From the NCBI GenBank assembly GCA_051744345.1, contig JBNJCW010000004.1:1-55932 (forward strand): a DNA stretch of 55,932 nucleotides. Direction: 5' to 3'. This document shows positions 3,389 to 27,510 of this stretch, piece by piece. The notes beneath the pieces are model-generated. The model searched no databases, had not been told where the DNA came from, and was given only the letters and a program-made list of their open reading frames with translations. Source of the DNA: Actinomycetota bacterium. Lineage in GTDB: Bacteria; Actinomycetota; Humimicrobiia; Humimicrobiales; Humimicrobiaceae. Both the position numbers and the translations under genes were made by a program. Positions within the stretch are counted from its first letter, which is position 1. The number at the start of each line of letters is the position of its first letter.

Positions 3389-5152
3389 TTGAAACCTGAG
3401 AGCGAACTCCTTACTGGAAATGAAGCTATTGCCAGAGGTGCATGGGAAGCAGGGGTAAAGGTAGCCACCGCCTATCCGGGCACGCCTTCTACAGAGATTT
3501 TGGAAAACATATCTGTTTATGGGGAAATCTATGCCCAGTGGTCGGTTAATGAAAAGGTTGCCCTGGAGGTTGCATCAGGAGCAAGTATTGAGGGAGTGAG
3601 GTCCCTGGCGGCTATGAAGCATGTGGGCTTAAATGTTGCCGCAGACCCTTTTATGACCCTGGCTTATACCGGGGTAGGAGGAGGGCTGGTATTGGTTTTT
3701 GCTGATGACCCGGATATGCACAGTTCCCAGAATGAACAGGATAACCGCTATTATGCCAAGATGGCAAAGGTTCCCATGCTGGAGCCTTCAGACAGCCAGG
3801 AAGCCAAAGACTTTACAAAAGCAGCCTTTGATATAAGCGAGAAGTATGACTGCCCGGTCCTTGTAAAAAGCACTACCAGGATTTCACATTCGAGGTCCCT
3901 GGTAAGCCTTGGGCAAAGGGTGGAGAGAAAGAAGCCGGAATATGAAAAGGACTGCCGCAAATATGTAATGATACCTGCCCACGGGAGGCTAAGGCATCAG
4001 GTTCTGCTCAAGAGATGGGAAAAGCTTACCAGTTATGTTAACCGGAGCGGCTTAAACTATATCTACTCTCCTAAAAACAGGGAGCCTGGTGATGTGGGCA
4101 TAATTACCAGCGGCATAAGTTATCAGTATGCAAGGGAGGTTTTTAGCGGATACCAGATATTAAAACTGGCTTTAACCAGCCCCCTGCCGGAGGAAGTTAT
4201 TGCTAAATTTGCCCGGGGCAAAAAACTTTTACTCATAGTAGAGGAACTGGAGCCCTTTCTGGAAGAGGGGATAAAGTCATTGGGCCTGGGAGCAGAGGTG
4301 GCAGGGAAACAATATTTTCCCCAGTACGGAGAACTATCCCTGGCAACCTTAAAAGAGGTAAAAAGAAAGCTTTTCGGGAGCAGGGAACCTGCAAGATCCG
4401 GGCAAGGCCCGGTTAATGTAGCTCCCAGGCCCCCGGTGCTCTGTGCGGGGTGTTCGCACAGGCCTGTTTTTCATGTGCTTAAGAAACTGAAGCTGAGGGT
4501 TATGGGGGATATAGGGTGTTACACCCTTTCAGTGCTGCCGCCCCTCAGTTCCATGGATACCTGCTTATGCATGGGTGCGGGGGTAGGCCAGGCACTGGGC
4601 ATGGAAAAAGCCAACCCCGGGCTTAAAGGCAAGCTGGTATCGGTTATAGGCGATTCTACTTTTTTCCATTCCGGCATAACTTCCCTTATAGATAATGTTT
4701 ATAATAAGGGAAGCAATGTAATAATAATACTGGATAACAGGATAACCGCTATGACCGGCCACCAGGCCCATCCGGGGATGGGAAAGACACTGAAAGGAGA
4801 AGATGCAGGTATTATCTGGCCTGAAGAGATTGCCCGGGCAGTGGGAGCAGCCAGTGTACAGGTGGTGGATTCTTATGATATGAAGGGGTTTGAAGATGTT
4901 TTAAAAAAGGAGCTGTCCAGAGAAGAGGTTTCGGTTATAGTGGCCAGGCAGGAGTGTGTGCTGTTGAATAAAAACAGGGGACAGGCAACTTTTTATATCG
5001 ACCCCGATGCATGCAATGCCTGCGGCGCCTGCCTGAAATTTGGCTGTCCTGCCATACAGTACAGGGATAAAACATACATTATAGACAAGCTGTTATGCAC
5101 TTCCTGCGGGGTTTGTGTCCAGTTGTGTAAATTTGATGCCATAAAAGAGTAA
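3389..5152 (+). CDS. iorA: Indolepyruvate:ferredoxin oxidoreductase alpha subunit
   Basis: LLTGNEAIARGA, AYPGTPSTE, PPVLCAGCSHR, TPP motif GDSTFFHSG...N, and two C-terminal 4Fe-4S motifs. TTG start. Confidence 0.95.
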   Translation: MKPESELLTGNEAIARGAWEAGVKVATAYPGTPSTEILENISVYGEIYAQWSVNEKVALEVASGASIEGVRSLAAMKHVGLNVAADPFMTLAYTGVGGGLVLVFADDPDMHSSQNEQDNRYYAKMAKVPMLEPSDSQEAKDFTKAAFDISEKYDCPVLVKSTTRISHSRSLVSLGQRVERKKPEYEKDCRKYVMIPAHGRLRHQVLLKRWEKLTSYVNRSGLNYIYSPKNREPGDVGIITSGISYQYAREVFSGYQILKLALTSPLPEEVIAKFARGKKLLLIVEELEPFLEEGIKSLGLGAEVAGKQYFPQYGELSLATLKEVKRKLFGSREPARSGQGPVNVAPRPPVLCAGCSHRPVFHVLKKLKLRVMGDIGCYTLSVLPPLSSMDTCLCMGAGVGQALGMEKANPGLKGKLVSVIGDSTFFHSGITSLIDNVYNKGSNVIIILDNRITAMTGHQAHPGMGKTLKGEDAGIIWPEEIARAVGAASVQVVDSYDMKGFEDVLKKELSREEVSVIVARQECVLLNKNRGQATFYIDPDACNACGACLKFGCPAIQYRDKTYIIDKLLCTSCGVCVQLCKFDAIKE

Positions 5153-5164
5153 AGGATATTTTTT

Positions 5165-5800
5165 ATGGGAAAAGACAGCAGGGTTAACCATATGGAGAGG
5201 GCAAGGGAAAGGTGTTTTCGGCTTCTGGGAGAAGGAAACACGGTTTCGGTTATGTTTTGCGGCGTGGGAGGGCAGGGGATAATTTTGGCTTCCACTGTTT
5301 TGGCCAGGGCCGCCCAGCTGGGAGGTTTTGATGTAAAGGTCTCAGAGGTTCACGGCATGGCCCAGAGGGGAGGCAGCGTTGTTGGCAGTGTGAGGCTGGG
5401 CAGGAAAGTTTTTTCCCCTACCATAGACGAGGCTGACCTTATAGTAGCCCTGGAAAAGCTGGAAGCGGCAAGGCATATGGGGAAGCTTGTCCGCGGCGGT
5501 TTTCTGCTGGTAAATGATTATGAGATAGTGCCTGTCTCCATGTATGCAAAAAAAGAAGAATACCCCCGCAATATACTGTCAGATATCTCCAAAATTACTC
5601 CCAGCTACAAGGCAATAGAGGCCGGAAAGATTGCGGCCAAACTGGGCCAGCCCAGGGTCCTTAATACCGTACTTTTGGGTTTTCTTTCCAATTTCCTGCC
5701 TATAGATAAAAAATGCTGGATAAGCTCTATCAAACAAACCATACCTTCCAGCTCTGTAGGGATAAATATCCAGGCCTTTGAAAGGGGCCTAAAATATTAA
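5165..5800 (+). CDS. iorB: Indolepyruvate:ferredoxin oxidoreductase beta subunit
   Basis: GVGGQGIILAS and SEVHGMAQRGGSV motifs; adjacent to iorA. Confidence 0.93.
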   Translation: MGKDSRVNHMERARERCFRLLGEGNTVSVMFCGVGGQGIILASTVLARAAQLGGFDVKVSEVHGMAQRGGSVVGSVRLGRKVFSPTIDEADLIVALEKLEAARHMGKLVRGGFLLVNDYEIVPVSMYAKKEEYPRNILSDISKITPSYKAIEAGKIAAKLGQPRVLNTVLLGFLSNFLPIDKKCWISSIKQTIPSSSVGINIQAFERGLKY

Positions 5801-5820
5801 TTTTAGCTTAGGAGGAAAAA

Positions 5821-6216
5821 ATGCCTGTAAAGCAAATAACTGTTTTTTTAGAAAACCAGACCGGCAGGCTTGCGGAAGTAGCCGGGATACTCAAAAGGCA
5901 GAATATCAACTTGCAGGGCTTTTCCACTACTGAAGCAAGGGACTACGGGATACTCAGGCTGGTAGTTTCTGATACCGAGAAAGCCAGAGAGAGCCTCAAA
6001 GACGCCGGTTTTACAACCCATGTTGCTGATGTAATCTGCGCTAAAGTAAAAGATGAGCCGGGAGAGCTGTTAAAGATACTGGAGCTTCTGGCCAGATCAA
6101 ACATAAATATTGACTATATTTATGTAATAGCCCAGACCAGGATAGTCTTAAGCGTTAAGGATTTGGAAAAGGCGGAGCAGGTTCTTGCAGATAACGGGGC
6201 TAAGCTTTGTACATAG
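5821..6216 (+). CDS. ACT domain (amino acid-binding) protein
   Basis: KQITVFLENQTGRLAEV and DEPGELLKILELL tandem ACT repeats; typical neighbour of ior/paaK. Confidence 0.88.
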   Translation: MPVKQITVFLENQTGRLAEVAGILKRQNINLQGFSTTEARDYGILRLVVSDTEKARESLKDAGFTTHVADVICAKVKDEPGELLKILELLARSNINIDYIYVIAQTRIVLSVKDLEKAEQVLADNGAKLCT

Positions 6217-6259
6217 TTTTTAATAAAAACTTATAACTAAAAAAAGAAAGGGGGTTTAG

Positions 6260-6364
6260 ATGCTTGGACTGGGGTTTTGGACTTTTCTTGCGTACATCCT
6301 GTGCATAATAAGTACTGTAGTCTGTGTGGTCTACGGGGCCATAATGTGGAACAAGAACAAATAA
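6260..6364 (+). CDS. Small single-pass accessory protein of the sodium:solute symporter
   Basis: Not in the ORF track. ATG 6260 gives MLGLGFWTFLAYILCIISTVVCVVYGAIMWNKNK*, with RBS gaaagggg upstream. The CV.YG...WN pattern is recalled from symporter small accessory proteins. Confidence 0.8.
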   Translation: MLGLGFWTFLAYILCIISTVVCVVYGAIMWNKNK

Positions 6365-6390
6365 AAAAATGATTGGAGAAAGGAGGGAAA

Positions 6391-7995
6391 GTGAATACTC
6401 CTCTGTTTAGTATCATTGTGGTGGTTTACCTGCTGATAATAGGTTTTCTGGGTTATCTGGGTTATACGGGGACCAAGGATTCAAGGGACTTCTTGATTGC
6501 CGGGGGCCAGATACACCCCTATATTATGGCCATATCCTATGGGGCGACATTTATATCAACCTCTGCCATTGTGGGCTTTGGCGGCGCCGCGGGGGTCTTT
6601 GGCATGGGGCTTTTGTGGCTTACTTTCTTAAATATTGCCCTGGGCATAGCTGTGGCCTTTATCTTCTTTGGCAAAAGAACCAGGCAGATGGGCCAGAATC
6701 TGGACGCCCATACCTTTCCTGAATTTTTGGGAAGGAGGTATGACTCGAGGTTTATCCAGGGGCTTGGCGGCCTAGTTATATTCCTGTTCATGCCTATTTA
6801 TACCGGAGTGGTGCTTATCGGGGCAGCAAGATTTATAGAGAGCACCCTTAATATAAACTTCATGGTGGCCCTGTTTATTTTTTCCATAATTATTGCCGCC
6901 TATGTTATCGCAGGGGGCCTTAAGGGGGTTATGTATACCGATGCGCTGCAGGGCACCATTATGTTTTTGGGCATGCTGGTATTGATATTCATCACCTATA
7001 TAAGGCTGGGGGGGATTGTACCTGCCCACCAGGCCTTAAGTGATATTTTCGACAAGGTGCCGGATGCCCTGGTGGCGGGAGGCCATCAGGGGTGGACCAA
7101 TATGCCTTCCCTGGGCTCACCGCTCTGGTGGTCCCTTGTTTCAACCATCATTATGGGCGTGGGCATAGGGGTTTTAGCCCAGCCCCAGCTGGTGGTCAGG
7201 TTTATGACTGTAAGAAGCTCAAAAGAGCTTAACCGGGCTGTGCTTGTGGGGGGCATCTTTATACTGTTTATGACTGGTGTGGCTTTTGTGGTAGGCTCCC
7301 TGTCCAATGCCTACTTTTTCCAGGAAACAGGGCAGATTGCCCTGGAGGCTGCAGAAGGTAACTCCGATTCGATAATCCCCGTTTATATAAACATGGCCAT
7401 GCCTACATGGTTTGTTTACCTGTTTATGCTTACCCTGCTGGCGGCGGCGATGTCTACCATAAGCTCGCAGTTCCATACCATGGGTTCAGCATTTTCCAGA
7501 GATATTATTGGAATCAGGAGCAGGGAAACCCGGGCTGATGAAGATGCAGCGGTTGAAAGGCCCACCAAGGGGCTGCTGGTTACAAAGATAGGGGTAATTA
7601 TAGGCATTATATTAAGCGTATTGCTGGGCTATTACCTGCCTACAAGCATTATAGCCAGGGGCACTGCCCTGTTCTTTGGGGTAGCAGCAGCAACTTTTTT
7701 GCCCATGTATATATGCGGCCTGTACTGGAAAAGGTCAACCAAGGCAGGTGCGGTAAGCGGAATGGTGGTCGGGGTAGTTACCAGTGTCTTCTGGATGCTG
7801 TTTATTCATAAAGACAATTCTGCTATGATAAGAATCTGTAATTTATTATTTGGAAAAGATACCCTGGCAAGCTACCCCTGGTCCGCTGTGGATCCCATAC
7901 TGATAGCATTTCCCGCAGCTTTCATAGTAACCATTGCGGTAAGCTTGTTTACCAAACCGCTTCCCGGGGGATTAATAGAAAAAAGCTTTAAATAA
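6391..7995 (+). CDS. Sodium:solute symporter family transporter
   Basis: About 13 TM helices. SYGATFISTSAIVGFGG, GGLKGVMYTDALQG and LLAAAMSTISSQ motifs. GTG 6391 follows RBS aaggaggg (ORF track starts at 6373). Confidence 0.93.
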   Translation: MNTPLFSIIVVVYLLIIGFLGYLGYTGTKDSRDFLIAGGQIHPYIMAISYGATFISTSAIVGFGGAAGVFGMGLLWLTFLNIALGIAVAFIFFGKRTRQMGQNLDAHTFPEFLGRRYDSRFIQGLGGLVIFLFMPIYTGVVLIGAARFIESTLNINFMVALFIFSIIIAAYVIAGGLKGVMYTDALQGTIMFLGMLVLIFITYIRLGGIVPAHQALSDIFDKVPDALVAGGHQGWTNMPSLGSPLWWSLVSTIIMGVGIGVLAQPQLVVRFMTVRSSKELNRAVLVGGIFILFMTGVAFVVGSLSNAYFFQETGQIALEAAEGNSDSIIPVYINMAMPTWFVYLFMLTLLAAAMSTISSQFHTMGSAFSRDIIGIRSRETRADEDAAVERPTKGLLVTKIGVIIGIILSVLLGYYLPTSIIARGTALFFGVAAATFLPMYICGLYWKRSTKAGAVSGMVVGVVTSVFWMLFIHKDNSAMIRICNLLFGKDTLASYPWSAVDPILIAFPAAFIVTIAVSLFTKPLPGGLIEKSFK

Positions 7996-8016
7996 ATTAG
8001 GGAAAGGAGGCCATCA

Positions 8017-9333
8017 TTGGTTAATGATTACTGGGAAAAAGATTATGAGACCATGCCCAGGGATAAGCTTTTGGAGCTGCAGACCGAAAGGCTTAAAAAT
8101 ACTCTGGTAAGGGTGTATGAAAGTGTAAAATTTTACAGGGAGAGGATCGATGACAGCGGCATTGATCTCTATAATTTCAAAAGCCTGGATGAGCTTGAAA
8201 AAATTCCCTTTACCACCAAGGATGACCTCCGCTTAAATTACCCCTTTGGCATGTTTGCCCGGCCCATGAGTGAAATTGTAAGGATACATTCATCTTCTGG
8301 AACCACCGGAAACCCCACTGTGGTGGGCTATACCAAAAATGATATCGCCCTCTGGGGAAACCTTATTGCCAGGAACCTCTACGGTGCCGGGGTAAGGGAA
8401 GATGATATTATACAGAACAGTTACGGCTACGGCCTTTTTACCGGCGGCCTGGGGCTTCATTACGGGGCCGAGCTTCTGGGAGCCACGGTAGTGCCTGTTT
8501 CCGGGGGAAACACCGAAAGGCAGCTTAAGATAATGGGTGACTACGGTTCCACCGTGCTCTGCTGCACCCCCTCATATGCCCTGTATATAGCGGAGGCAGG
8601 AAAAGAGATGGGCATTGATTTTTCGAAGCTGCCTCTCAGGACAGGCATACTGGGAGCAGAGCCGTGGACAGAAGAGATGAGGGCAGAAATAGAATCAAGG
8701 CTTTGCATTGATGCAGTGGATATATACGGCTTAAGCGAGATAATTGGGCCGGGGGTAAGTTGTGAGTGCCTTAAGAAAAAGGGCTTGCATGTGGCTGAAG
8801 ACCATTTCATAATAGAAATTGTAGACCCTGCCACCGGCAGGCAGGTCCCCCATGGAAAGAGGGGAGAGATGGTCTTTACGTCCATTACCAAGGAGGGGAT
8901 ACCCATAATCCGGTACCGCACCAGGGACCTTTCTGCTCTGGATGCCGGAGTTTGCGGCTGCGGGAGGACGCATGCCCGCATGGCCAAGCCCATGGGCCGC
9001 ACTGATGACATGCTCATAATCAGGGGGGTTAATGTGTTCCCTTCCCAGATAGAGGAGGTCCTGATGAAGGTAAAGGAGGTTGAGCCCCATTACCTTATAG
9101 TGGTGGACCGTAAAAATTACCTGGACAATATGGAGCTGTGGGTGGAGGTTTCAGAAGATATATTTTCAGAAAAAATGAATGAGCTGGAGGCTTTCGAATC
9201 TTCTATCGAGCACAAGCTCTATTCTGCTATAGGCATACACATAGATGTTAAGCTAAAGGAACCAAAGACAATTAAAAGAAGCAGCGGAAAAGCCAGGAGG
9301 GTTCTTGACCGGAGGAAAGGGGAGTCTCTGTAG
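8017..9333 (+). CDS. paaK: Phenylacetate-CoA ligase family protein, copy 1
   Basis: HSSSGTTGNPT, YGLSE and GRTDDMLIIRGVNVFPSQIE adenylate-forming motifs. Confidence 0.92.
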   Translation: MVNDYWEKDYETMPRDKLLELQTERLKNTLVRVYESVKFYRERIDDSGIDLYNFKSLDELEKIPFTTKDDLRLNYPFGMFARPMSEIVRIHSSSGTTGNPTVVGYTKNDIALWGNLIARNLYGAGVREDDIIQNSYGYGLFTGGLGLHYGAELLGATVVPVSGGNTERQLKIMGDYGSTVLCCTPSYALYIAEAGKEMGIDFSKLPLRTGILGAEPWTEEMRAEIESRLCIDAVDIYGLSEIIGPGVSCECLKKKGLHVAEDHFIIEIVDPATGRQVPHGKRGEMVFTSITKEGIPIIRYRTRDLSALDAGVCGCGRTHARMAKPMGRTDDMLIIRGVNVFPSQIEEVLMKVKEVEPHYLIVVDRKNYLDNMELWVEVSEDIFSEKMNELEAFESSIEHKLYSAIGIHIDVKLKEPKTIKRSSGKARRVLDRRKGESL

Positions 9334-9336
9334 GTG

Positions 9337-10650
9337 ATGGATAGAACAAATTTCTGGGACGCTGGGATTGCTGCCAGCAGCAGGGAAAAGATTGAATCTA
9401 TCCAGCTGGAGAGGCTGGCAGATACAATCAAGCATATATACGGAGCAAACAAATTTTACAAGTCAAGGATTGATTCTGCAGGCCTTGATCCTTTTAATAT
9501 AAAGGATATTAAAAGCATACAGAAGCTCCCCTTTACTACCAAGGAGGACCTGCGCCAAAATTACCCCTTCGGCCTTTTCTGCACTCCCCACAGCAAGATT
9601 GTAAGGGTGCATTCCTCTTCGGGTACCACCGGTAACCCCACCGTGGTAGGATACACCAAGGGTGATCTGGAGATATGGGCTGAAGTTCTGGCCAGGATAA
9701 TGTATGATGCCGGGGTAAGGGAAGATGATGTGGTGCAGGTAAGCCATGGTTTTGGGATGTTTACCGGGGGTTTTGGCTTCCAGTATGCGGCTGAAAAAAT
9801 AGGGGCACTGGTTATACCTATTTCAGGGGGAAACACCGAGAGGCAGCTTAAGGTCATGGCAGATTTTGGCTCCACCGTGCTCTGCTGCACTCCCTCCTAT
9901 GCCCTGTACATGTCTGAGGTGGCCAGAAAGATAGGGGTGGATTTTAACAGCCTGAAGCTTAAAGTGGGTTTTTTTGGGGCAGAGCCCTGGACCGAGGCCA
10001 TGCGGGGAGAAATTGAAGAGAGGCTTCATCTCACCGCACTGGACAGTTACGGCTTGAGCGAGGTGATTGGACCCGGGGTTAGCTGTGAGTGCGGAGTTCG
10101 TAATGGCCTGCATATAAACGAAGACCATTTTCTGGTAGAAATTATAAATCCGGATACGGGAGAGGTTCTTGAGCCCGGCCGGAAAGGGGAGCTGGTGTTT
10201 ACCTCCCTTACCAAAAAAGCGATGCCGGTTATACGCTACCGTACCAAGGACATATCCTATCTTATGGAGGAAGAATGCAGCTGCGGGAAAACGCTTGCCC
10301 GCATGGCCAAGCCCATGGGCCGCACTGATGACATGCTCATAATCAGGGGGGTTAATGTATTCCCTTCCCAGATAGAGGAGGTCCTGATGGGAATTGATGA
10401 CCTTGAGCCCCATTACCTCATAGTGCTTGACAGCAAAGATTACATGGATACGCTGGAAGTTTGGGTAGAGGTGTCAGAAAGCATATTTCATGAAGAGATA
10501 ATGGACCTGGAAGACTTTGAAAAATCTATAGAGGACAGGCTATACTCGGCCATAGGCATAAGAATCAAGGTAAGCCTAAAAGAGCCCCAGACCATAGCCC
10601 GGAGCCAGGGGAAAGCCCAGAGGGTTTTAGACAGAAGGAATAAAGATTAG
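9337..10650 (+). CDS. paaK: Phenylacetate-CoA ligase family protein, copy 2
   Basis: Same motifs; tandem paralog of the upstream gene. Confidence 0.92.
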   Translation: MDRTNFWDAGIAASSREKIESIQLERLADTIKHIYGANKFYKSRIDSAGLDPFNIKDIKSIQKLPFTTKEDLRQNYPFGLFCTPHSKIVRVHSSSGTTGNPTVVGYTKGDLEIWAEVLARIMYDAGVREDDVVQVSHGFGMFTGGFGFQYAAEKIGALVIPISGGNTERQLKVMADFGSTVLCCTPSYALYMSEVARKIGVDFNSLKLKVGFFGAEPWTEAMRGEIEERLHLTALDSYGLSEVIGPGVSCECGVRNGLHINEDHFLVEIINPDTGEVLEPGRKGELVFTSLTKKAMPVIRYRTKDISYLMEEECSCGKTLARMAKPMGRTDDMLIIRGVNVFPSQIEEVLMGIDDLEPHYLIVLDSKDYMDTLEVWVEVSESIFHEEIMDLEDFEKSIEDRLYSAIGIRIKVSLKEPQTIARSQGKAQRVLDRRNKD

Positions 10651-10684
10651 GTATCCATCAAAAAACAGCCAGTTAAAGAAAAAG

Positions 10685-11482
10685 GTGAAACTGCTATTGG
10701 GCAAGGAGGTCAGCTATATCAAAGGCCTTTTTCCCCATAATCTTAAGCAATACAGGAACTTGTCTCTTCTCTACACCCACAGCCTTCTTCTGTTTTCCCA
10801 TACAGAGCTGAATCCGGAAAAGCCTTCATGGGGCTGGAAAGTAAAAAATTTGGCTGCGGGTATTGAGATGCTGGGCATGGGTTGCGATTTCCATCTTTTT
10901 GATATTAATAATTTCGGAGAGAGAAATACCCGCAAAAGGGAAGAAAGATATACCCTTAACCTGCTTTTCGGGGATGTTTTTTATTCACGGGCCGTAGATT
11001 ACCTGTTAAGCTTCGGAGACAGCCTGGTCTTTGAAGAGGTCATAAATTCCCTCAAGCAGGTACACCGGAGCAGGCTGCTGCTGCACCGGCAGTTACTTGA
11101 AGTTGCAGCCAATCCTGCTTTGCTCAAGAATGTAATCGAAGAGAAAACCGCACTTCTTTTAGGTATAAATTCCCTGTTCAAGGGTACCTTCCTCTTAAGC
11201 TGGAGCATCTTTTCGGCAAAGGAAACCCGGTCAGCTATTGAACAGATGGGCAATTTGTATAAAATATTTAACTATATGACATTAATAAAAAGCCTTCAGG
11301 AGTTAAATGAGTTCCTGCATCTTATGTCCGGCAAACTTTCTGTGGATATGGATTTAGAGTTGGTGGAGGGTAAAAAAAATTCTATCAGAAGCAAGTTAGA
11401 TGCTTCACTGTCCGGGCTGGAAACGGACTGGCTGAAAGTTAAGTTTCCTGAGGTATTGGACAGGGTTCAGGGCGGGGTTTAA
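10685..11482 (+). CDS. Degenerate polyprenyl synthetase-fold protein (no DDxxD motifs)
   Basis: LLFGDVFYSRAVDYL matches the AVLxGDxLxxxA segment of trans-prenyltransferases, but the FARM position reads FHLFDINNF and no second DDxxD is present. Mostly helical. Confidence 0.55.
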   Translation: MKLLLGKEVSYIKGLFPHNLKQYRNLSLLYTHSLLLFSHTELNPEKPSWGWKVKNLAAGIEMLGMGCDFHLFDINNFGERNTRKREERYTLNLLFGDVFYSRAVDYLLSFGDSLVFEEVINSLKQVHRSRLLLHRQLLEVAANPALLKNVIEEKTALLLGINSLFKGTFLLSWSIFSAKETRSAIEQMGNLYKIFNYMTLIKSLQELNEFLHLMSGKLSVDMDLELVEGKKNSIRSKLDASLSGLETDWLKVKFPEVLDRVQGGV

Positions 11483-13207
11483 ATGAAAGCGGATCTAATT
11501 TTACTCCACGCACCGAGCGTGTATGATTTTAGAAAAAAGACCATCATGTTTGGGCCTATGAGCGATCTGGTGCCCAGCACCCCAATCTTTGAGATGTATC
11601 CCATAGGGTTTCTTACCCTGGCCAATTACCTTGAGAAGAGGGGATTTAAGGTAAGGATTGTAAATCTGGCCTACCGCATGCAGGAGGATAAAGCCTTTGA
11701 TGCTGAAAGATTCATCAGCAGGCTGAAAGCATCCGCTTTCGGGATAGACCTTCACTGGCTGCCGCACTGCCAGGGATCCACGGAGGTAGCAAAGATAGTA
11801 AAGAGGCATCACCCCCGTGTTCCGGTAATTTTTGGCGGCTTCAGTGCTTCTTTTTTTTATGCTGAGCTTATCAAATTTAGGCAAATAGACTATATAATCC
11901 GGGGAGATTCTGCTGAAGAACCGCTGGCCAGGCTCATGGAGATTATTAAAAGCGGCCGTCAGGAAGGTCTGGCAGATGTACCCAATTTGGTTTACAAGCA
12001 GGGAGAAAAAGTTTATGTTAACCCCATAGACTGTATATCCACGGACCTGGAGGAGATTGATTTTGATTACCGCCTCATGTTCAGGCAGGTGGTAAGGTTT
12101 TGGGATTTAAAAAGCCTGGTTCCCTTCAGTGGATGGCTTCGCTATCCCATTACCACTATTCCGATAGTAAGGGGATGTTTTTCGGAATGCTCCGGCTGCG
12201 GGGGCTCAAAAAGTGCATTTAATCTGTTCGCAAAACGCCGGATGCCTGCATACAGGTCGCCCAAAAAACTGGTGGAGGAGATTGGTAAAATCAACAAATA
12301 TATAAATGCGCCTGTCTTTTTGCTGGGGGATATAAACAGCAATGGCCCCGATTATGTGCAGGAATTTTTTGGGTATGCCAGAAAGCTTCCCTCCAGTATC
12401 CAGATTTTCTTTGAATTTTTCAGGCCTCCCGGGAAGCGTTTTTTTGACCAGGCAGAAGAGATATTTGATAATGTGCTCTACGAGATGTCCCCTGACTCCC
12501 ATGACCCTTTAATCAGGGAAGGGATGGGGAAGCCCCGGTTCAGCAACCGGGAGCTTGAAGAGGCTGTGGATTATGCCCTTAAAAAAGGAGCGGTGCGTTT
12601 TGACCTGTATTTTATGACTGGCCTTCCCGGCCAGGGAAAAGATTCGATCCTGGATACAGTGGACTATTGTGAGGAGCTATACCGGAAGCTGGGATGGGAT
12701 AAGCGGTTTATGCCTTTCATATCACCGATGGCCCCCTTCATCGATCCCGGAAGCAGGGCCTACACCAATCCTGAAAAATTTGGCTATACCCTTACCAGAA
12801 AAACCCTTGCCGGGCATATAGAGGCTATAACCCGGCCCTCGTGGAAATACATATTGAATTACAAAAGCAGCTCTCTGTCCACCCAGGACCTGGTTGATTC
12901 CACTTATCAGGCAGCCCTGGGACTAAATCGCCTGAAAGGAAAAGCAGGTTCAATCACTGCCGAAGTTATGGACCAGAACCAAAAGCGAATAAAGCATGCC
13001 CTGGATACCATGGAAAAGATAGACAGCATAATGGAAATAGAAGACAGGGATGAGAGACAGGCCAGGCTTGCAAGGCTGAAACAGGATACCGACCGTTACA
13101 GCATGTCTACGGTATGTGAAAAAAAAGAACTGGAATTTCCCCTGTTTAACAGCAGGTTCAACTGGTTTAGAATAATAAGGGAGGTACTGTTTAAGGCAGG
13201 CGGCTAA
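11483..13207 (+). CDS. B12-binding domain radical SAM protein (resembles the TIGR04190/Ta0216 family)
   Basis: N-terminal cobalamin-binding-like region (EMYPIGFLTLANYL, GIDLHWLPH, VIFGGFSAS, DYIIRGDSAEE). CX3CX2C motif RGCFSECSGC. Confidence 0.85.
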   Translation: MKADLILLHAPSVYDFRKKTIMFGPMSDLVPSTPIFEMYPIGFLTLANYLEKRGFKVRIVNLAYRMQEDKAFDAERFISRLKASAFGIDLHWLPHCQGSTEVAKIVKRHHPRVPVIFGGFSASFFYAELIKFRQIDYIIRGDSAEEPLARLMEIIKSGRQEGLADVPNLVYKQGEKVYVNPIDCISTDLEEIDFDYRLMFRQVVRFWDLKSLVPFSGWLRYPITTIPIVRGCFSECSGCGGSKSAFNLFAKRRMPAYRSPKKLVEEIGKINKYINAPVFLLGDINSNGPDYVQEFFGYARKLPSSIQIFFEFFRPPGKRFFDQAEEIFDNVLYEMSPDSHDPLIREGMGKPRFSNRELEEAVDYALKKGAVRFDLYFMTGLPGQGKDSILDTVDYCEELYRKLGWDKRFMPFISPMAPFIDPGSRAYTNPEKFGYTLTRKTLAGHIEAITRPSWKYILNYKSSSLSTQDLVDSTYQAALGLNRLKGKAGSITAEVMDQNQKRIKHALDTMEKIDSIMEIEDRDERQARLARLKQDTDRYSMSTVCEKKELEFPLFNSRFNWFRIIREVLFKAGG

Positions 13208-13211
13208 AAAG

Positions 13212-14177
13212 ATGTTAGATGAATTTAAGGTGTTTGGTTTTTTAAAAGAAGATATACAGAAATTAGAGCAGTACCTTCAGGGTTTTGCCCGGGGCCTGGA
13301 TGGAATACTGCAGGAAGGGATAACCAACACCCTGCTTGCCGGGGGCAAAAGGATAAGGCCTGCCCTTTTTTTCATAAGTGCCAGAAATAAAAAATATGAT
13401 ATAGATTACCTGCTTCCGGCTGCCGCTTCTATTGAAATAATACACACCGCTTCCCTTATACACGATGATATTATCGATAAGTCTGAGCTGCGGAGGGGCA
13501 AAAAAACCATACACAGCATTTATGACAATGATACTGCAAAATATATAGGGAACTATCTTTTTACCCATACCTTCTCTCTGCTTAATTCATACAGCCAGCC
13601 CCGGATACTGAGCGAGATGTCTTACGCTGCAGAGAATCTGGTAAAAGGGGAATTTAACCAGCTAAAAAAACATAAGAAATTAAACCAGGACGAAGATTAC
13701 TATTTTAATATGATAAATGAAAAGACCTCATCGCTGTTTAAGGCCAGCTGTGCCCTGGGGGGCATGCTCTCCGGTTCAACCAAAGCCGATATAGATAAAC
13801 TGAGGAGCTTTGGCCAGCTTCTGGGCACTGCTTTCCAGATTAATGATGACCTTCTGGATATAGGGGTAAACAGGAAGGGGAGCATAGGAAAGCCCATCGG
13901 CAATGACATAAGGCAGGAAAATGTTACCCTTCCGGTGATATATGCCTTAAAGGATCCCGAATTAAAGGATTCAGTAAAAAGGATTCTGGGAAAAGCAAAT
14001 AAAAGCGAAAAGGATATCAGCCTAATGCTGGATATGATAAACAGGACCGGTGCGGTAAATACGGCCAAGGCAAAATTCGAGTCTTATCTGGCCCGGGCAC
14101 AAAAAGCAGTGGACAGCATAGGCGGGCAGCAGAGAAGGGAAGGCCTTTTGAAGATACTGGATTACTTTAAGTCATGA
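13212..14177 (+). CDS. Polyprenyl diphosphate synthase (HepT/IspB-like)
   Basis: GGKRIRP, FARM LIHDDIIDKSELRRG, KT motif, SARM FQINDDLLD. Confidence 0.92.
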   Translation: MLDEFKVFGFLKEDIQKLEQYLQGFARGLDGILQEGITNTLLAGGKRIRPALFFISARNKKYDIDYLLPAAASIEIIHTASLIHDDIIDKSELRRGKKTIHSIYDNDTAKYIGNYLFTHTFSLLNSYSQPRILSEMSYAAENLVKGEFNQLKKHKKLNQDEDYYFNMINEKTSSLFKASCALGGMLSGSTKADIDKLRSFGQLLGTAFQINDDLLDIGVNRKGSIGKPIGNDIRQENVTLPVIYALKDPELKDSVKRILGKANKSEKDISLMLDMINRTGAVNTAKAKFESYLARAQKAVDSIGGQQRREGLLKILDYFKS

Positions 14178-15124
14178 ACAGTATTTTAAGCTTGGCTCTG
14201 GAGGTACTGGGGATTACCATCCCCATATTTGCAGTTATTATAATTGGCTACCTTATAAGGGTGAAGGGCATAATAAGTGATGCCGGGGTATTGGGGTTAA
14301 ACAAGATAGCCTACAATATCGGGCTTCCTGCACTTATACTGATAAGCATAGCCCAGTATAATCTTTCAGAAATTTTCAATGCACGGATAATAGGGGTTAT
14401 ATATTCCTCCTATCTTATATATATAATAATTATTTTTGCAGGCGCAAAATTCAGCCGGGAGCCGGGAAGGGTAAAAGGCGCTTTAATGGTATCTTCCTAC
14501 CGCTGCAATATGGCATTTATTGGTTTTCCCATAATAATTTCTGCTTTCGGGGGCCTGGCATTGGCCAAGGCAAGCCTGGTGGTTGCTTTCCTTACCCCGG
14601 TAAACATAGTTACAACCGTGCTCCTGTTCAAGATTTATAACCGCAGGGAAGAGGGGATTAAGGCAGGAAGGCTTCTCCGTGAGCTGGCTGTAGACCCGCT
14701 GATTTTGTCAGCGGTTCTGGGCATTATAATTTCATATATAAATATAAGTATCCCCCGGGCGGTAAGCAGCGTCCTGGATATCCTATCATCCATGGTTATA
14801 GGCCTGGCCCTGCTGGCTATCGGGGCTTCTTTCCGTTTTTTCCATATAAAGAGCTATATAAGGCTGCTTGTCTTTATAAGCATAGCCAAACTCCTGGTTA
14901 TGCCGGCTATAGCATTCCTTATGGCTGAGTTTGTGTTTAAACTGAATAATGTGGACAGGAATGTGACTGTGCTGCTGTTCTCCATGCCTCTGGCGGTAGC
15001 AGCCTATATAATGGCGAAGCAATACCGTTCTGAAGCAGATCTGGTGTCCTCGGCCCTTATCATAACCACGGTTATATCTTCGGTTACTGTATCCGTGTGG
15101 CTTCTGGTGCTGAAGGTTATCTAG
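14174..15124 (+). CDS. AEC (auxin efflux carrier) family transporter
   Basis: About 10 TM helices. NIGLPALI, NMAFIGFPII and MPLAVAAYIMAKQY motifs. Confidence 0.88.
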   Translation: MNSILSLALEVLGITIPIFAVIIIGYLIRVKGIISDAGVLGLNKIAYNIGLPALILISIAQYNLSEIFNARIIGVIYSSYLIYIIIIFAGAKFSREPGRVKGALMVSSYRCNMAFIGFPIIISAFGGLALAKASLVVAFLTPVNIVTTVLLFKIYNRREEGIKAGRLLRELAVDPLILSAVLGIIISYINISIPRAVSSVLDILSSMVIGLALLAIGASFRFFHIKSYIRLLVFISIAKLLVMPAIAFLMAEFVFKLNNVDRNVTVLLFSMPLAVAAYIMAKQYRSEADLVSSALIITTVISSVTVSVWLLVLKVI

Positions 15125-20023: not shown

Positions 20024-20905
20024 ATGATATTCAGGAAGAAAAAAATTGGGCTGGCTCTTTGCGGCGGTGCGGCCAGGGCGCTGTCCCATATAGGGGTGCT
20101 GAAGGTTCTGGATGAGCTGGGGGTAAAAATAGACGCTGTAAGCGGAACCAGCATGGGAGCAATCGTGGGCTCTTTTTACTGTTCCGGGGTGCCTTTGGAA
20201 GAGATTGAAGATTATGTCAACAGTATGGACTGGCGGAGCATCAGGATGTTCTCGGATATCACCCTCACCAAAATGGGGATAATAAATGGGAGGAAAGTGG
20301 AAAAAATCCTCAGCGGCTTTTTAAAAGGTAAAACATTTGAGCAATGCTGCCCCCAGTTCTGCTGTGTGGCTGTGGACATGTTAAAACAGGAGAGGGTGGT
20401 GCTAAGCTCGGGCAGCCTGGTGGATGCGGTAAGGGCTTCAATATCCATACCGGGGCTCTTTTCGCCGGTTACCCTGGATGATATGATACTGGTGGACGGG
20501 GGGGTCATTGAGCCTCTGCCTACCGAAGCTTTAAAAGATATATTTGATGTCGACATTATAATTGCGGTTGCTATTTCCACCTCCAGGCACAGGGATTTAA
20601 CCGATTACTACCAAAAAATCTCCAATATAGAAGAGGGTAACCGGTTCCTGGTTGCTTTAAAGAAGGCATTTGTAAGGCCCAGGACAAGGAAACATCCCCA
20701 TACATATGAAATACTTAATACCAGTTTCAATATAATACAGCGTGAATTGACCAGAAAATACTGCCAGCATGCGGATATAATAATTGAGCCGCAGGTAGGA
20801 GACTACGGCTTCTTTGAGTTTACCAAGGGCAGGGAGATAATGGAGAAGGGCCTGGCAGCTGCCCGGGAGAAAATCCCTGAAATTAAGAAAAAGCTCAATG
20901 TTTAG
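20024..20905 (+). CDS. Patatin-like phospholipase (RssA/NTE-like)
   Basis: LCGGAARALSHIGVL, GTSMG nucleophile motif and DGG motif. Confidence 0.92.
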   Translation: MIFRKKKIGLALCGGAARALSHIGVLKVLDELGVKIDAVSGTSMGAIVGSFYCSGVPLEEIEDYVNSMDWRSIRMFSDITLTKMGIINGRKVEKILSGFLKGKTFEQCCPQFCCVAVDMLKQERVVLSSGSLVDAVRASISIPGLFSPVTLDDMILVDGGVIEPLPTEALKDIFDVDIIIAVAISTSRHRDLTDYYQKISNIEEGNRFLVALKKAFVRPRTRKHPHTYEILNTSFNIIQRELTRKYCQHADIIIEPQVGDYGFFEFTKGREIMEKGLAAAREKIPEIKKKLNV

Positions 20906-21767
20906 GCAATTCAAACTCCATGGAAAAATCAGCCGCAGGGGCTGAATGGGTTATATAGCCGGTGGATATAAGGTCAATACCTGTCTGGCAGTACTCTTTC
21001 AGGTTGCCAAGGGTGATGTTCCCTGATACCTCTATGAGCGTTTCCTTCTTTGCCTTGCCCTTTATTTCCTTAACCGCTTCTCTTATCCGGCCGGGATCCA
21101 TATTATCCAGCATTATGATGTCTGCTTCTGCCTTAATGGCCTCTTTCAGCTGTTTGGCATCCTGGACCTCTACCTCTATCTTCAGGGTATGGGGGATTTT
21201 TGCTTTTATATTCCCTATCGCTTTGGCTATGCCCCCGGCTGCCCTTATGTGGTTGTCTTTTAGCATTACCCCGTCAAAAAGGCCGAAGCGATGATTGAAT
21301 CCGCCCCCTGTGCTTACTGCATACTTTTCAATGCTTCTCAATGTTGGCTTGGTCTTTCTGGTATCTGTAATTTTTACCCCCTGGGGGGAAGCTATTGAAC
21401 AAAATTTCCGGGTAAGGGTTGAGATTCCCGAAAGGTGCTGTATAAAATTCAGCGCAGACCGCTCTGCAGCCAGAAGGGAAGCGGTGGGTCCCTCGAGGTT
21501 GGCTGCTTTCTGCATGTTTTCGATTTTCTGGCCGTCCTCTTTTATCTTTTCCACCTCTATATCCCCATCAACCTGCATGAAGAGGCAGGCAGCTATATCC
21601 ATGCCGCAGAGGATAGCGCCTTCCTTTTGCTTGCATACAATATATGCAGTGCTCCTGTGGCCTGGAGGAAGCAGGTACCTGGTGGTTATGTCCCCAAAGC
21701 CCTGCAAGTCTTCAGAGAGGGTGCGCTTTATTAGTTCCATTACCTCATTTTTGGGTATTATTTCCAT
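20895..21767 (-). CDS. nadC: Nicotinate-nucleotide diphosphorylase (carboxylating)
   Basis: EDL..GDITT, TRKTKP, NHRFGLFD.VMLKDNH, IEVEV and IMLDNM motifs. Confidence 0.96.
   Translation of the reverse strand: MEIIPKNEVMELIKRTLSEDLQGFGDITTRYLLPPGHRSTAYIVCKQKEGAILCGMDIAACLFMQVDGDIEVEKIKEDGQKIENMQKAANLEGPTASLLAAERSALNFIQHLSGISTLTRKFCSIASPQGVKITDTRKTKPTLRSIEKYAVSTGGGFNHRFGLFDGVMLKDNHIRAAGGIAKAIGNIKAKIPHTLKIEVEVQDAKQLKEAIKAEADIIMLDNMDPGRIREAVKEIKGKAKKETLIEVSGNITLGNLKEYCQTGIDLISTGYITHSAPAADFSMEFELPKH

Positions 21768-25027: not shown

Positions 25028-27506
<2,479 letters not shown>

Positions 27507-27510
<4 letters not shown>

What the first reader, a model, noticed from the sequence alone, without database searches (positions are those of the whole stretch)
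10685..15124. B12-radical SAM enzyme sandwiched between prenyl synthase genes: candidate undescribed isoprenoid, quinone or lipid modification system
Seen: degenerate prenyl synthase, B12-binding radical SAM (CX3CX2C), intact polyprenyl synthase and AEC exporter, with gaps of 0 nt, 4 nt and a 4-nt overlap. The block follows the aryl-CoA ligases after only 34 nt. Established: cobalamin-dependent radical SAM enzymes methylate or cyclise unactivated carbons, including isoprenoid lipids (HpnP/HpnR, archaeal GrsAB). I know of no assigned function for this Ta0216-like family. Inference: the enzyme methylates or otherwise modifies a polyprenyl chain or prenylated electron carrier, possibly fed by the aryl-CoA pathway upstream. 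Caveat: no UbiA-type prenyltransferase is in the window.
Basis: partly seen in the sequence, partly recalled or inferred. Interest (0 to 1): 0.75.

Follow-up and report, generated by a model that had tools for sequence, protein, structure and literature searches.

The report
B12 radical enzyme in quinone-tail operon
An unstudied vitamin-B12-type radical enzyme sits between the two subunit genes of the enzyme that builds the long lipid tail of respiratory quinones, and in other microbes the same enzyme is next to, or fused with, the last enzymes of vitamin K2 (menaquinone) synthesis, so it most likely performs an undescribed late step on this quinone in anaerobes.

Summary
Four tightly packed genes lie at 10685-15124: a prenyl-synthase-fold protein without catalytic motifs, a TIGR04190 B12/radical SAM enzyme with CX3CX2C, an intact long-chain polyprenyl diphosphate synthase, and an AEC permease.

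The layout matches the Bacillus gerC operon (hepS-menG-hepT), with the radical SAM gene in menG's place. Relatives at about 50% identity have hepS-like, rSAM, menG, hepT in that order. Two independent lineages carry rSAM-MenG fusions. Other lineages place the gene beside MenA-like UbiA, geranylgeranyl reductase, complex I or formate dehydrogenase.

Across the 87 genomes of this class, the gene co-varies with MenG (26/39 against 2/48) and with a second, PTO1314-like radical SAM (32/39 against 3/48). It occurs with the classical men pathway or with no head-group pathway, so it belongs to the late, prenyl-dependent stage.

My best reading is a cobalamin-dependent tailoring of prenylated (demethyl)menaquinol, probably C-methylation. 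The chemistry is inferred.

The upstream aryl-CoA ligases belong to an IorAB module and are not a feeder. This genome lacks both known head-group pathways and obvious quinone-using complexes, which remains unexplained. No publication on the family was found.

The parts
10685..11482 (+). HepS-like small subunit: a prenyl-synthase-fold protein (265 aa) that has lost both DDxxD motifs. The degenerate first motif is GCDFHLFD (nt 10880-10903). The conserved LLFGDVFYSRAV is at nt 10961-10996.
   Evidence: No Pfam or NCBIfam hit. The AF2 model has pLDDT 86.8 and is all-helical. Foldseek top hits are all trans-prenyl diphosphate synthases and include B. subtilis HepS chain 9kp1_A. There are 16 homologues directly upstream of the rSAM in related MAGs. 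The same GD(Y/F)(Y/F)YSRA motif occurs in the small ORFs upstream of distant rSAM homologues, two of which carry precomputed PF00348 hits, one of them only faint.
11483..13207 (+). TIGR04190 (Ta0216-family) B12-binding-domain radical SAM enzyme, 574 aa. The B12-like Rossmann domain spans nt 11588-11914. The CX3CX2C cluster motif is at nt 12176-12199.
   Evidence: TIGR04190 scores 611.7 bits against a cut-off of 500, with PF02310 and PF04055. Only three Cys are conserved across 39 diverse members. The AF2 model has pLDDT 94.2, and its best PDB matches are the cobalamin radical SAM enzymes TsrM, MgmA, TokK, CysS and OxsB. The start codon abuts the stop codon of orf265.
13212..14177 (+). HepT-like large (catalytic) subunit of a medium/long-chain trans-polyprenyl diphosphate synthase, 321 aa. 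FARM DDIID is at nt 13464-13478 and SARM DDLLD at nt 13845-13859.
   Evidence: PF00348 scores 222 bits. The best NCBIfam model is heptaprenyl diphosphate synthase component II, at 263 bits, below its cut-off of 456. Ala and Ser stand at positions -5 and -4 before FARM (IHTASLIHDD), which by the established chain-length rule is the long-chain pattern. The other two PF00348 genes of the genome are an FPP synthase (343 bits, above cut-off) and a short-chain GGPPS-like protein.
14174..15124 (+). AEC-family (auxin efflux carrier / Mem_trans) permease, 316 aa, overlapping the synthase gene by 4 nt. It is probably co-transcribed, but its membership of the functional unit is doubtful.
   Evidence: PF03547 scores 111.7 bits. 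It lies downstream of the synthase in most loci of this actinobacterial clade. It is absent from the distant rSAM loci and from all metagenome rSAM clusters except the one closest to the window.

Best explanation
The block is a gerC-type 'menaquinone late-step' operon. orf265 and the 321-aa synthase would form a heteromeric (HepS/HepT-like) medium/long-chain prenyl diphosphate synthase that makes the quinone tail. The TIGR04190 enzyme encoded between them would be a cobalamin-type radical SAM enzyme acting at the prenyl-dependent end of menaquinone-type quinone biosynthesis, beside the C2-methylase MenG.

The most likely reaction is a radical, methylcobalamin-mediated C-methylation of the prenylated (demethyl)menaquinol. 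The target could be another ring carbon, giving a methyl-menaquinone of the thermoplasmaquinone type, or a carbon of the methyl or prenyl substituent. In the usual class B cycle, SAM methylates cob(I)alamin, a second SAM gives the 5'-deoxyadenosyl radical, and the substrate radical takes the methyl group from methylcobalamin.

What is shown: the gene anatomy, family membership, the folds, the fusions, the neighbourhoods and the co-variation. What is inferred: the heteromer, the substrate, and above all the chemistry.

My odds are about 0.7 that it is a late-step quinone or prenyl-lipid enzyme, about 0.4 that it methylates, and about 0.25 that it makes ring-methylated menaquinone.
For: 1. Operon logic. 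Relatives at about 50% identity have small prenyl-synthase-like ORF, rSAM, UbiE/MenG, polyprenyl synthase in that order (L042, L044). L043 has small ORF, rSAM, synthase. L028 has rSAM followed by UbiE. From my own knowledge, this is the B. subtilis hepS-menG-hepT order with one gene added.

2. Rosetta-stone fusions of rSAM with a C-terminal UbiE/MenG domain (235-240 bits) occur in two separate 50%-identity clusters. Each is a single open frame in the DNA. One is also seen in further Logan assembly contigs.

3. In 80 metagenome loci forming 19 rSAM clusters at 65% identity, 7 clusters have UbiA (MenA-like), MenG-type methylase, polyprenyl synthase, a HepS-like ORF or a partner rSAM within 3.5 kb. 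Another 4 clusters lie beside formate dehydrogenase genes (FdhE and, in one cluster, FdnG/FdnH) and/or SelA, or beside a Nuo gene. Against an assumed 2-5% background, 7 of 19 gives P of 5e-8 to 2e-5.

4. Archaeal members lie next to complex I genes, next to a cis-prenyltransferase, and next to a geranylgeranyl reductase. A Dethiobacter member lies near UbiA and a cytochrome b.

5. In the 87 genomes of this class, MenG is found in 26 of 39 rSAM-positive and 2 of 48 rSAM-negative genomes (genome-level P 2e-10, genus-level P 0.005). All 18 high-quality rSAM-positive genomes in the class that were checked have a UbiA, often adjacent to MenG or MenB.

6. The gene occurs both with a complete menFDBACE operon (genera g6, g12, g17; locus L050) and with no MenB or MqnA/D at all (own genus, g15, g16, G087, G090). 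It is therefore independent of how the head group is made.

7. None of the 14 control genomes, including the classical menaquinone producers E. coli, B. subtilis and C. glutamicum, has a true member. It is therefore not part of canonical synthesis.

8. The closest solved folds are cobalamin radical SAM methylases. The top hit, TsrM, methylates an aromatic carbon. The genome encodes CobT, CobS and CobU homologues.
Against: No experiment exists, and nothing in the sequence tells a methylase from a non-methylating B12 radical SAM such as BchE, GrsA, OxsB or ThnL.

Ring methylation of menaquinone is already explained elsewhere by class C enzymes (MenK/MqnK/MenK2, PMC10114718).

This particular genome (97% complete) has no MenB/C/D/H and no MqnA/D. 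It has no bona fide MenA; its only UbiA scores 59.6 bits against TIGR00751, whose cut-off is 102. tblastn finds no NuoH/L/M/N, CydAB, FrdB, cytochrome b or TatC. It is therefore unclear that this organism makes or uses a respiratory menaquinone.

8 of 19 metagenome rSAM clusters show MoxR/DUF58 or no recognisable link.

Co-variation inside one class is partly shared ancestry.
Confidence: 0.5

Rival explanations
1. Same substrate, different chemistry. The enzyme acts on the prenylated quinone but does not methylate it. Instead it does a B12/radical SAM reaction of the BchE, GrsA or ThnL kind. Examples are anaerobic oxidation of the benzylic/allylic C1' (chlorobiumquinone-like 1'-oxo-menaquinone), cyclisation of the side chain, or C-S bond formation (methylthio-quinone as in Thermoplasma and Aquificales).
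For: BchE is as close by profile score as HpnR (53 against 54 bits). OxsB and AprD4, which are not methylases, are also among the structural matches. From my own knowledge, several unusual quinones have no assigned biosynthetic genes, which the quinone survey also states in general terms (10.1101/2025.09.17.676790). A second radical SAM co-varies with the gene, which suggests multi-step radical chemistry.
Against: Most characterised B12-domain radical SAM enzymes are methylases, and the five best distinct structural matches (TsrM, MgmA, TokK, CysS) are mainly methylases. Fusion to a SAM-dependent methylase fits a pair of methylations at least as well.
Confidence: 0.15
2. The enzyme modifies the polyprenyl diphosphate or the growing chain (for example by methylation) before UbiA/MenA transfers it. 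It would work on the product of the HepS-like/HepT-like synthase whose genes flank it.
For: Conserved translational coupling to the HepS-like ORF and adjacency to the synthase are seen in lineages about 50% diverged. Adjacency to a cis-prenyltransferase and to a geranylgeranyl reductase is seen in archaea. Polyprenyl synthase adjacency is seen in 4 of 19 metagenome clusters.
Against: Fusions are with MenG, which acts on the quinol head group, not with a synthase. Many loci have UbiA or MenG but no synthase nearby. From my own knowledge, Bacillus puts menG in the same position, so position does not imply a chain substrate.
Confidence: 0.13
3. Together with the co-varying PTO1314/HpnH-like radical SAM (and, in some lineages, an aminofutalosine/5'-deoxyadenosine-deaminase-like amidohydrolase), the enzyme is part of an unrecognised route that builds or completes the quinone ring in anaerobes lacking both the Men and the futalosine pathways.
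For: The own genus (three genomes 97-98% complete), g15, g16, G087 and G090 have the rSAM without MenB or a strong MqnA/D match; the class genomes among them also keep MenG. The PTO1314-like rSAM is in 32 of 39 rSAM-positive against 3 of 48 negative genomes, and it is adjacent to TIGR04190 in L103 and L115. An amidohydrolase of the 5'-dA/aminofutalosine deaminase group follows the cluster in five loci. The only lineage in the class with real MqnA/D (g18) lacks both rSAMs.
Against: Genera g6, g12 and g17 carry a full classical men operon and both rSAMs, which would be redundant. The own genome lacks the amidohydrolase. Uptake of a naphthoate precursor from the community explains the missing head-group genes more simply.
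Confidence: 0.1
4. The enzyme has nothing to do with quinones or isoprenoids (for example an RNA, protein or cofactor modification), and the gene order reflects operon drift.
For: 8 of 19 metagenome clusters and 2 of the 12 loci retrieved with individual homologues show MoxR/DUF58, peptidase, RluD/YfiH or nothing recognisable. The own genome shows no obvious quinone-dependent complexes.
Against: Two independent fusions with MenG are seen, adjacency to four different quinone/prenyl gene families recurs in Actinomycetota, Bacillota, Thermoplasmata and Aigarchaeota, and the gene co-varies with MenG.
Confidence: 0.07

Closest known systems
Bacillus subtilis gerC operon hepS-menG(menH)-hepT, heteromeric heptaprenyl diphosphate synthase plus demethylmenaquinone methylase (structure 9kp1)
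   Same: A small non-catalytic subunit gene, one inserted quinone-modifying gene, then the catalytic subunit gene. The large subunit's best NCBIfam model is HepT. The small protein has the prenyl-synthase fold without DDxxD and matches HepS chain 9kp1_A. Distant relatives have the full order hepS-like, rSAM, menG, hepT.
   Different: The inserted gene here is a B12/radical SAM enzyme, and MenG is on another contig. orf265 does not match the Pfam HepS family and structurally resembles IspB-type synthases more than HepS (TM 0.58-0.65 against 0.47-0.52), so it may be an independent degenerate paralogue. The heteromer is inferred.
MqnK / MenK / MenK2, class C (HemN-like) radical SAM menaquinone C8- and C7-methyltransferases (Hein et al. 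2017, 2018, as summarised in PMC10114718)
   Same: These are radical SAM enzymes that tailor finished menaquinone by C-methylation in anaerobes. This is the functional model I consider most likely.
   Different: They belong to a different enzyme class: they have no B12 domain and have the HemN fold. E. coli HemN finds only one unrelated HemN-like gene in this genome, on C41. HemN (1olt) appears only at rank 32 of the rSAM model's structural matches, at TM 0.25. No homology is claimed, only possible analogy.
Class B cobalamin-dependent radical SAM methylases with solved structures: TsrM (6wtf), MgmA (9ccb), TokK (7kdx), CysS (9n1c)
   Same: N-terminal Rossmann B12-type domain, CX3CX2C partial TIM barrel and helical C-terminal domain. 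These are the best structural matches (E 2e-17 to 4e-13). TsrM methylates an aromatic sp2 carbon.
   Different: Sequence identity is only 11-15%. No PDB sequence match is found at E 1e-3. The substrates are unrelated (tryptophan, MCR glutamine, carbapenem, cystobactamid). Cobalamin binding and methyl transfer are not shown for TIGR04190.
Lipid-modifying B12 radical SAM enzymes HpnP/HpnR (hopanoid methylases), GrsA/GrsB (GDGT ring synthases), Gmm (GMGT methylase), reviewed in PMC13459092
   Same: B12-domain radical SAM enzymes that act on unactivated carbons of isoprenoid lipids.
   Different: The window protein scores 54 bits on HpnR (cut-off 650) and 21 bits on HpnJ (cut-off 578), so it is not a member. 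The review lists no quinone-modifying B12 enzyme.
BchE, anaerobic Mg-protoporphyrin monomethyl ester oxidative cyclase
   Same: A B12-domain radical SAM enzyme of anaerobes acting on a redox cofactor. It gives the third-best NCBIfam hit.
   Different: It scores 53 bits against a cut-off of 481. It has a different substrate and a non-methylating reaction.

Membership tests
NCBIfam TIGR04190 (B12_SAM_Ta0216) | Full-length match above the curated cut-off (500 bits) | tested here: met
   611.7 bits, residues 4-538 on profile positions 1-531 of 554.
Radical SAM superfamily | CX3CX2C motif for the SAM-binding [4Fe-4S] cluster in a partial TIM barrel | tested here: met
   C232, C236 and C239 are at least 90% conserved in 39 diverse members and invariant in the 14 closer ones. 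PF04055 scores 44 bits. A barrel is predicted at pLDDT 94.
Class B (cobalamin-dependent) radical SAM enzymes | N-terminal Rossmann-type B12-binding domain preceding the radical SAM domain | tested here: met
   PF02310 scores 54 bits over residues 36-144. The top Foldseek matches are cobalamin-bound TsrM, TokK, CysS and OxsB.
Class B (cobalamin-dependent) radical SAM enzymes | Actual cobalamin binding and methylcobalamin-mediated methyl transfer | not testable with these tools
   Only indirect evidence: the genome has CobT, CobS and CobU homologues. This needs UV-vis/EPR and turnover assays.
Heteromeric medium-chain prenyl diphosphate synthase (HepS/HepT, HexA/HexB type) | Catalytic subunit with intact FARM and SARM and small residues at positions -4/-5 before FARM | tested here: met
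   DDIID and DDLLD are present and the context is IHTASLIHDD. The best model is HepT at 263 bits, below its equivalog cut-off of 456.
Heteromeric medium-chain prenyl diphosphate synthase (HepS/HepT, HexA/HexB type) | Separate small subunit lacking DDxxD, encoded in the same operon | tested here: met
   orf265 has the prenyl-synthase fold and no DDxxD. It is conserved upstream in 16 aligned loci and in distant lineages. It does not hit Pfam's HepS family.
Heteromeric medium-chain prenyl diphosphate synthase (HepS/HepT, HexA/HexB type) | Physical heterodimer required for activity, and product chain length | not testable with these tools
   This needs co-purification and product analysis. No multimer prediction was available.
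MenK/MqnK/MenK2 class C menaquinone methyltransferases | HemN-like fold with HemN C-terminal domain and no B12 domain | tested here: not met
   The window rSAM has a B12 domain. HemN (1olt) matches only at TM 0.25, rank 32. The enzyme is therefore not a member; functional analogy remains possible.
HpnR / HpnP hopanoid methylases | Match above the family cut-off | tested here: not met
   HpnR scores 54.4 bits against a cut-off of 650.
Menaquinone biosynthesis, late steps (MenA, MenG context) | Genomic or physical linkage to MenG and MenA across lineages | tested here: met
   Fusions, coupling, UbiA directly upstream in 15 loci and co-variation.
Menaquinone biosynthesis, late steps (MenA, MenG context) | The host genome makes the naphthoquinone head group (Men or Mqn pathway) | tested here: not met
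   The own genome has no MenB/C/D/H by tblastn and no PF02621 match. The same holds for congeners G019 and G020. Other genera of the class do have menFDBACE.

The most novel reading that the evidence does not exclude
TIGR04190 and the co-varying PTO1314/HpnH-like radical SAM form a two-enzyme radical module, widespread in anaerobic Bacteria and Archaea. Either it makes a quinone not attributable to any known gene (a third, cobalamin-dependent route to methylated or otherwise altered menaquinone, possibly thermoplasmaquinone), or it completes a quinone ring by a route independent of both the Men and the futalosine pathways in lineages that lack both.
Probability: 0.2. Interest if true: 0.9.

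Novelty: new variant of a known kind. Interest (0 to 1): 0.7.

Why it matters
Menaquinone is the ancestral respiratory quinone, and its biosynthesis is regarded as fully mapped (Men and futalosine pathways, plus the class C methylases).

A large, catalogued but unstudied B12/radical SAM family has 387 representatives of 50%-identity clusters at E<1e-30. It is present in Actinomycetota, Bacillota, Thermoplasmata and Aigarchaeota. If it is wired into the last steps of menaquinone synthesis, an unrecognised quinone structure or biosynthetic step is common in anoxic habitats.

That would affect three things: the use of quinones as biomarkers and redox-potential proxies, the reading of 'incomplete' quinone pathways in MAGs, and the catalogue of cobalamin-dependent chemistry.

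The hypothesis can be tested directly by heterologous expression in a menaquinone-producing laboratory strain.

Tried and rejected
1. Aryl-CoA feed. Rejected because the PaaK pair belongs to an IorA-IorB-ACT-SSF module and is not linked to the rSAM outside this clade.

2. The FrdA-like gene in the window as a quinone-using fumarate reductase. Rejected: it is NadB within nadA-nadB-nadC.

3. The UbiA/SPASM-rSAM pair on contig C35 as the obligatory partner. Its distribution (10 genomes) does not follow TIGR04190 or MenG. The partner that does co-vary is the PTO1314-like rSAM on C5.

4. The futalosine pathway as the reason for the neighbouring amidohydrolase. G087, which has that arrangement, lacks MqnA/D. 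The amidohydrolase scores only below cut-off on 5'-deoxyadenosine and aminofutalosine deaminase models, so its role stays open.

5. Sequence search of the PDB gave nothing for the rSAM and only a chance hit (E 0.55) for the orf265 profile.

6. Literature searches for TIGR04190 and Ta0216 gave 0 papers. Searches combining methylmenaquinone, cobalamin and radical SAM, and two recent reviews or surveys, gave no B12 quinone enzyme.

7. Promoter and terminator scans were no better than shuffles for promoters and uninformative at the junctions.

8. The diverse alignment A2 was too variable for a metagenome scan, so the narrower A3 was used.

10. I could not obtain organism names for most homologues, so I could not compare the family's distribution with published quinone chemotaxonomy.

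Full report
**Observation**

The four ORFs are at the stated coordinates. orf265 (10685-11482) ends in TAA directly followed by the ATG of the radical SAM gene (11483-13207). Four bases separate that gene from the polyprenyl synthase (13212-14177). The synthase's TGA overlaps the ATG of an AEC permease (14174-15124). The block starts 34 nt after the second of two PaaK-like ligase genes.

The radical SAM protein is a full-length member of NCBIfam TIGR04190, at 611.7 bits against a cut-off of 500. It has Pfam B12-binding and Radical_SAM domains and the motif C232-x3-C236-x2-C239.

The synthase has intact DDIID and DDLLD motifs. Ala and Ser stand at positions -5 and -4 before the first motif, which is the long-chain pattern. 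Its best model is heptaprenyl diphosphate synthase component II. The other two PF00348 genes of the genome are an FPP synthase and a short-chain GGPPS-like protein. This is therefore the only candidate for a quinone-length tail.

orf265 has no family hit and no DDxxD. Its AlphaFold model (pLDDT 86.8) matches only trans-prenyl diphosphate synthases in the PDB, including the B. subtilis HepS chain. The stretches GIEMLGMGCDFHLFD and LLFGDVFYSRAV line up with the ...ELxHxxSLxHDD and GDxxxxRA regions of real synthases.

**Surroundings**

Upstream of the ligases lie IorA (3389-5152), IorB (5165-5800), an ACT-domain protein (5821-6216) and an SSF transporter (6373-7995). IorAB plus PaaK-like ligases form the usual arylpyruvate/arylacetate module of anaerobes (established knowledge). 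I therefore read the ligases as part of that module and not as a feeder.

All genes from 3389 to 15124 are on one strand with small gaps, so read-through is possible.

Downstream on the other strand is a TPR/lytic transglycosylase, followed by a PAS-GGDEF-HD protein.

**Organism and close relatives**

The nearest genomic relatives are uncultured Actinomycetota MAGs, among them Candidatus Humimicrobium. In 24 of 24 such loci with downstream sequence, the synthase follows the radical SAM gene. In most of these loci a homologue of orf265 precedes it. The ligases and the transglycosylase are also syntenic there, so this clade alone proves little.

**Distant relatives**

Homologues at about 50% identity settle the matter.
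- L042 and L044 read: small prenyl-synthase-like ORF, rSAM, UbiE/MenG, polyprenyl synthase, amidohydrolase.
- L043 reads the same without MenG.
- L028 reads: rSAM, UbiE, amidohydrolase, with start and stop codons overlapping or within a few bases.

As far as I know, this is the order of the Bacillus gerC operon (hepS-menG-hepT) with one gene added.

The exhaustive representative search found 387 cluster representatives at E<1e-30. Among them are two long proteins that are rSAM plus a C-terminal UbiE/MenG domain at 235-240 bits. Both are single open frames in their contigs. One is in an NCBI MAG and also in further Logan assembly contigs. The other is followed by the same amidohydrolase and TPR genes as the unfused loci.

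Other members:
- Thermoplasmatales and Thermoplasmata members lie directly beside complex I genes. One overlaps a cis-prenyltransferase gene.
- An Aigarchaeota/Nitrososphaeria member is followed by a geranylgeranyl reductase.
- A Dethiobacter member lies three genes after a UbiA and two after a cytochrome b.
- Two loci (L029, L056) show no link.

**Neighbourhood statistics**

A metagenome scan returned 80 loci at 43-70% identity. I clustered the rSAM sequences at 65% identity, giving 19 groups, and clustered the neighbouring ORFs (Pfam and NCBIfam of cluster representatives).
- Seven groups (34 loci) have a MenA-like UbiA, a MenG-type methylase, a polyprenyl synthase, a HepS-like ORF or a DUF3463 radical SAM within 3.5 kb. 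The UbiA is directly upstream, at a median of 17 nt, in 15 loci.
- Four groups lie beside formate dehydrogenase genes (FdhE and, in one group, FdnG/FdnH) and/or SelA, or beside a Nuo gene.
- Two groups lie beside MoxR/DUF58.
- Six groups show nothing I could recognise.

Polyprenyl synthase itself is adjacent in 4 of 19 groups. With an assumed background of 2-5%, 7 of 19 has P between 5e-8 and 2e-5. The background is my estimate, not a measurement.

**Phyletic pattern in the class**

The class holds 87 genomes in 19 genera.
- True TIGR04190 members occur in 39 genomes of 10 genera.
- MenG (TIGR01934 above cut-off) occurs in 28 genomes, 26 of them rSAM-positive. This gives genome-level P of 2e-10 and genus-level P of 0.005.
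- The two exceptions belong to genus g18. It is the only lineage with strong MqnA/D matches (254-256 bits), and it lacks the rSAM.
- MenB, within a full menF-menD-menB-menA-menC-menE operon, is present in g6, g12 and g17. It is absent from the own genus (three genomes 97-98% complete), from g15, g16, g4 and g5, and from two genomes outside the class that carry the rSAM.
- All 18 high-quality rSAM-positive genomes in the class that were checked have a UbiA, often next to MenG or MenB. Most rSAM-negative genomes have none.

The rSAM therefore travels with the late, prenyl-dependent genes and is indifferent to how the head group is supplied. That argues against a role in classical head-group synthesis and for a late or tailoring step.

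None of the 14 control genomes, which include classical menaquinone producers, has a true member.

**A second partner**

In L103 and L115 the gene before TIGR04190 is a radical SAM with a DUF3463 domain. It is closest to the PTO1314 family and to HpnH, and a polyprenyl synthase and a UbiA precede it.

A search of the class with TIGR03961 found an orthologous group (91-149 bits, below the family cut-off). It occurs in 32 of 39 rSAM-positive and 3 of 48 rSAM-negative genomes, with genus-level P of 1e-4. The own copy is at C5:36923-37816 in an unrelated context.

The namesakes of both families come from Thermoplasmatales. From my own knowledge, Thermoplasma makes methylated and methylthio-menaquinones whose genes have not been assigned. 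This is a lead, not evidence.

**Structure**

The rSAM model (pLDDT 94.2) has a Rossmann domain, a partial barrel and a helical C-terminal domain. Its best PDB matches are the cobalamin enzymes TsrM (E 2e-17), MgmA, TokK, CysS and OxsB, and then AprD4.

Only the three cluster cysteines are conserved across 39 diverse members, so there is no auxiliary cluster. The genome has CobT, CobS and CobU homologues.

This meets the architectural definition of a class B enzyme. It cannot tell methylation from other B12/radical SAM chemistry.

**Interpretation**

I read the block as a gerC-type operon for the quinone tail that also carries a cobalamin-type radical SAM enzyme of the late menaquinone steps.

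Methylation of the prenylated (demethyl)menaquinol is the most likely chemistry, for three reasons. Most characterised class B enzymes methylate. The fusion partner is itself a quinol C-methylase. Methylated menaquinones are known from anaerobes. This part is inference.

The rivals are non-methylating tailoring, action on the prenyl diphosphate, a role in an unknown ring-forming route, and no link at all. They are given with odds in their own sections.

**What does not fit**

This genome has MenG (225 bits) but no MenB/C/D/H and no MqnA/D. It also has no MenA next to MenG, unlike its congeners G019 and G020; here a tRNA and tuf lie there. Its single UbiA is divergent and is paired with a NirJ/AhbD-like SPASM radical SAM.

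With E. coli and archaeal queries I found no NuoH/L/M/N, CydAB, FrdB, cytochrome b or TatC.

Three readings remain open. The organism may salvage a head-group precursor and use the quinone with partners I did not search for. The product in this lineage may not be a respiratory quinone. Or an unknown route may exist.

**Comparison with the known**

No paper mentions TIGR04190 or Ta0216. A 2026 review of lipid-modifying radical SAM enzymes and a 2025 survey of bacterial quinone pathways list no B12 quinone enzyme. The known menaquinone ring methylases are class C enzymes.

The family is catalogued and its class is known, but the substrate context is new. I therefore rate it a new variant of a known kind.

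**Earlier notes of this scan**

I had reached the gerC/MenG reading before opening the earlier notes. Those notes, on other genomes, say the same. I re-tested here the MenG fusion, the UbiA partnership and the formate dehydrogenase/SelA context.

New in this report:
- the class-wide co-variation counts;
- independence from the head-group route;
- the co-varying PTO1314-like radical SAM;
- the absence of head-group and obvious quinone-using genes in this genome.

Noticed in passing
window 3389-10650: IorA, IorB, an ACT-domain protein, an SSF sodium:solute symporter and two tandem PaaK-like ligases (about 60% identical to each other) form an arylpyruvate/arylacetate module directly upstream, on the same strand with gaps of 0-156 nt.
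   Followed up: partly
whole genome G000 (contigs C35, C39, C4): The 97%-complete genome keeps MenG, a long-chain prenyl synthase and a UbiA, but it has no MenB/C/D/H and no MqnA/D. Two high-quality congeners are the same. This suggests head-group salvage or an unknown route.
   Followed up: partly
G000 C5:36923-37816 (- strand): A PTO1314/HpnH-like radical SAM (TIGR03961, 135 bits, below cut-off) co-varies with TIGR04190 across the class (32/39 against 3/48). It is adjacent to TIGR04190 in metagenome loci L103 and L115.
   Followed up: partly
G000 C35:2089-5037: A conserved trio: a 253-aa membrane protein, a divergent MenA-like UbiA and a NirJ/AhbD-like SPASM radical SAM. The UbiA/rSAM pair occurs in only about 10 genomes of the class, and its distribution does not follow MenG or TIGR04190.
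   Followed up: partly
loci L028, L042, L043, L044, L142: An amidohydrolase of about 450 aa follows the rSAM/MenG/synthase cluster in five loci. It matches 5'-deoxyadenosine and aminofutalosine deaminase models below cut-off, and a TPR protein follows it. It could remove SAM by-products. It is absent from the window's genome.
   Followed up: partly
class genomes G009, G010, G013, G015: Their TIGR04190 genes match the model in two pieces (about 1-155 and 154-527). In G009, G010 and G015 both pieces lie in one open frame, which indicates an insertion in the B12 domain region. In G003 the gene is split into two frames.
   Followed up: no
window 20895-24326 (- strand): A nadC-nadB-nadA operon. The FrdA-like hit here is L-aspartate oxidase, not a fumarate reductase.
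   Followed up: yes
window 25055-31488: A cluster of two Cys/Met PLP enzymes, a 385-aa radical SAM protein, a PALP+CBS enzyme, an ORF with no family hit and a UbiE-like class I methyltransferase (54 bits to PF01209), all on one strand.
   Followed up: no
window 1092-2158: Two adjacent half-size ORFs (165 and 190 aa) both match the N-terminal half of the ArsP_1 permease model. A PadR regulator lies at 2757-3140.
   Followed up: no
metagenome loci such as L086, L109, L112, L121, L133: In one lineage the TIGR04190 gene sits between formate dehydrogenase genes (FdnG, FdnH, FdhE, a UshA-like selenoprotein-family gene) and selA. RluD and YfiH lie downstream.
   Followed up: partly
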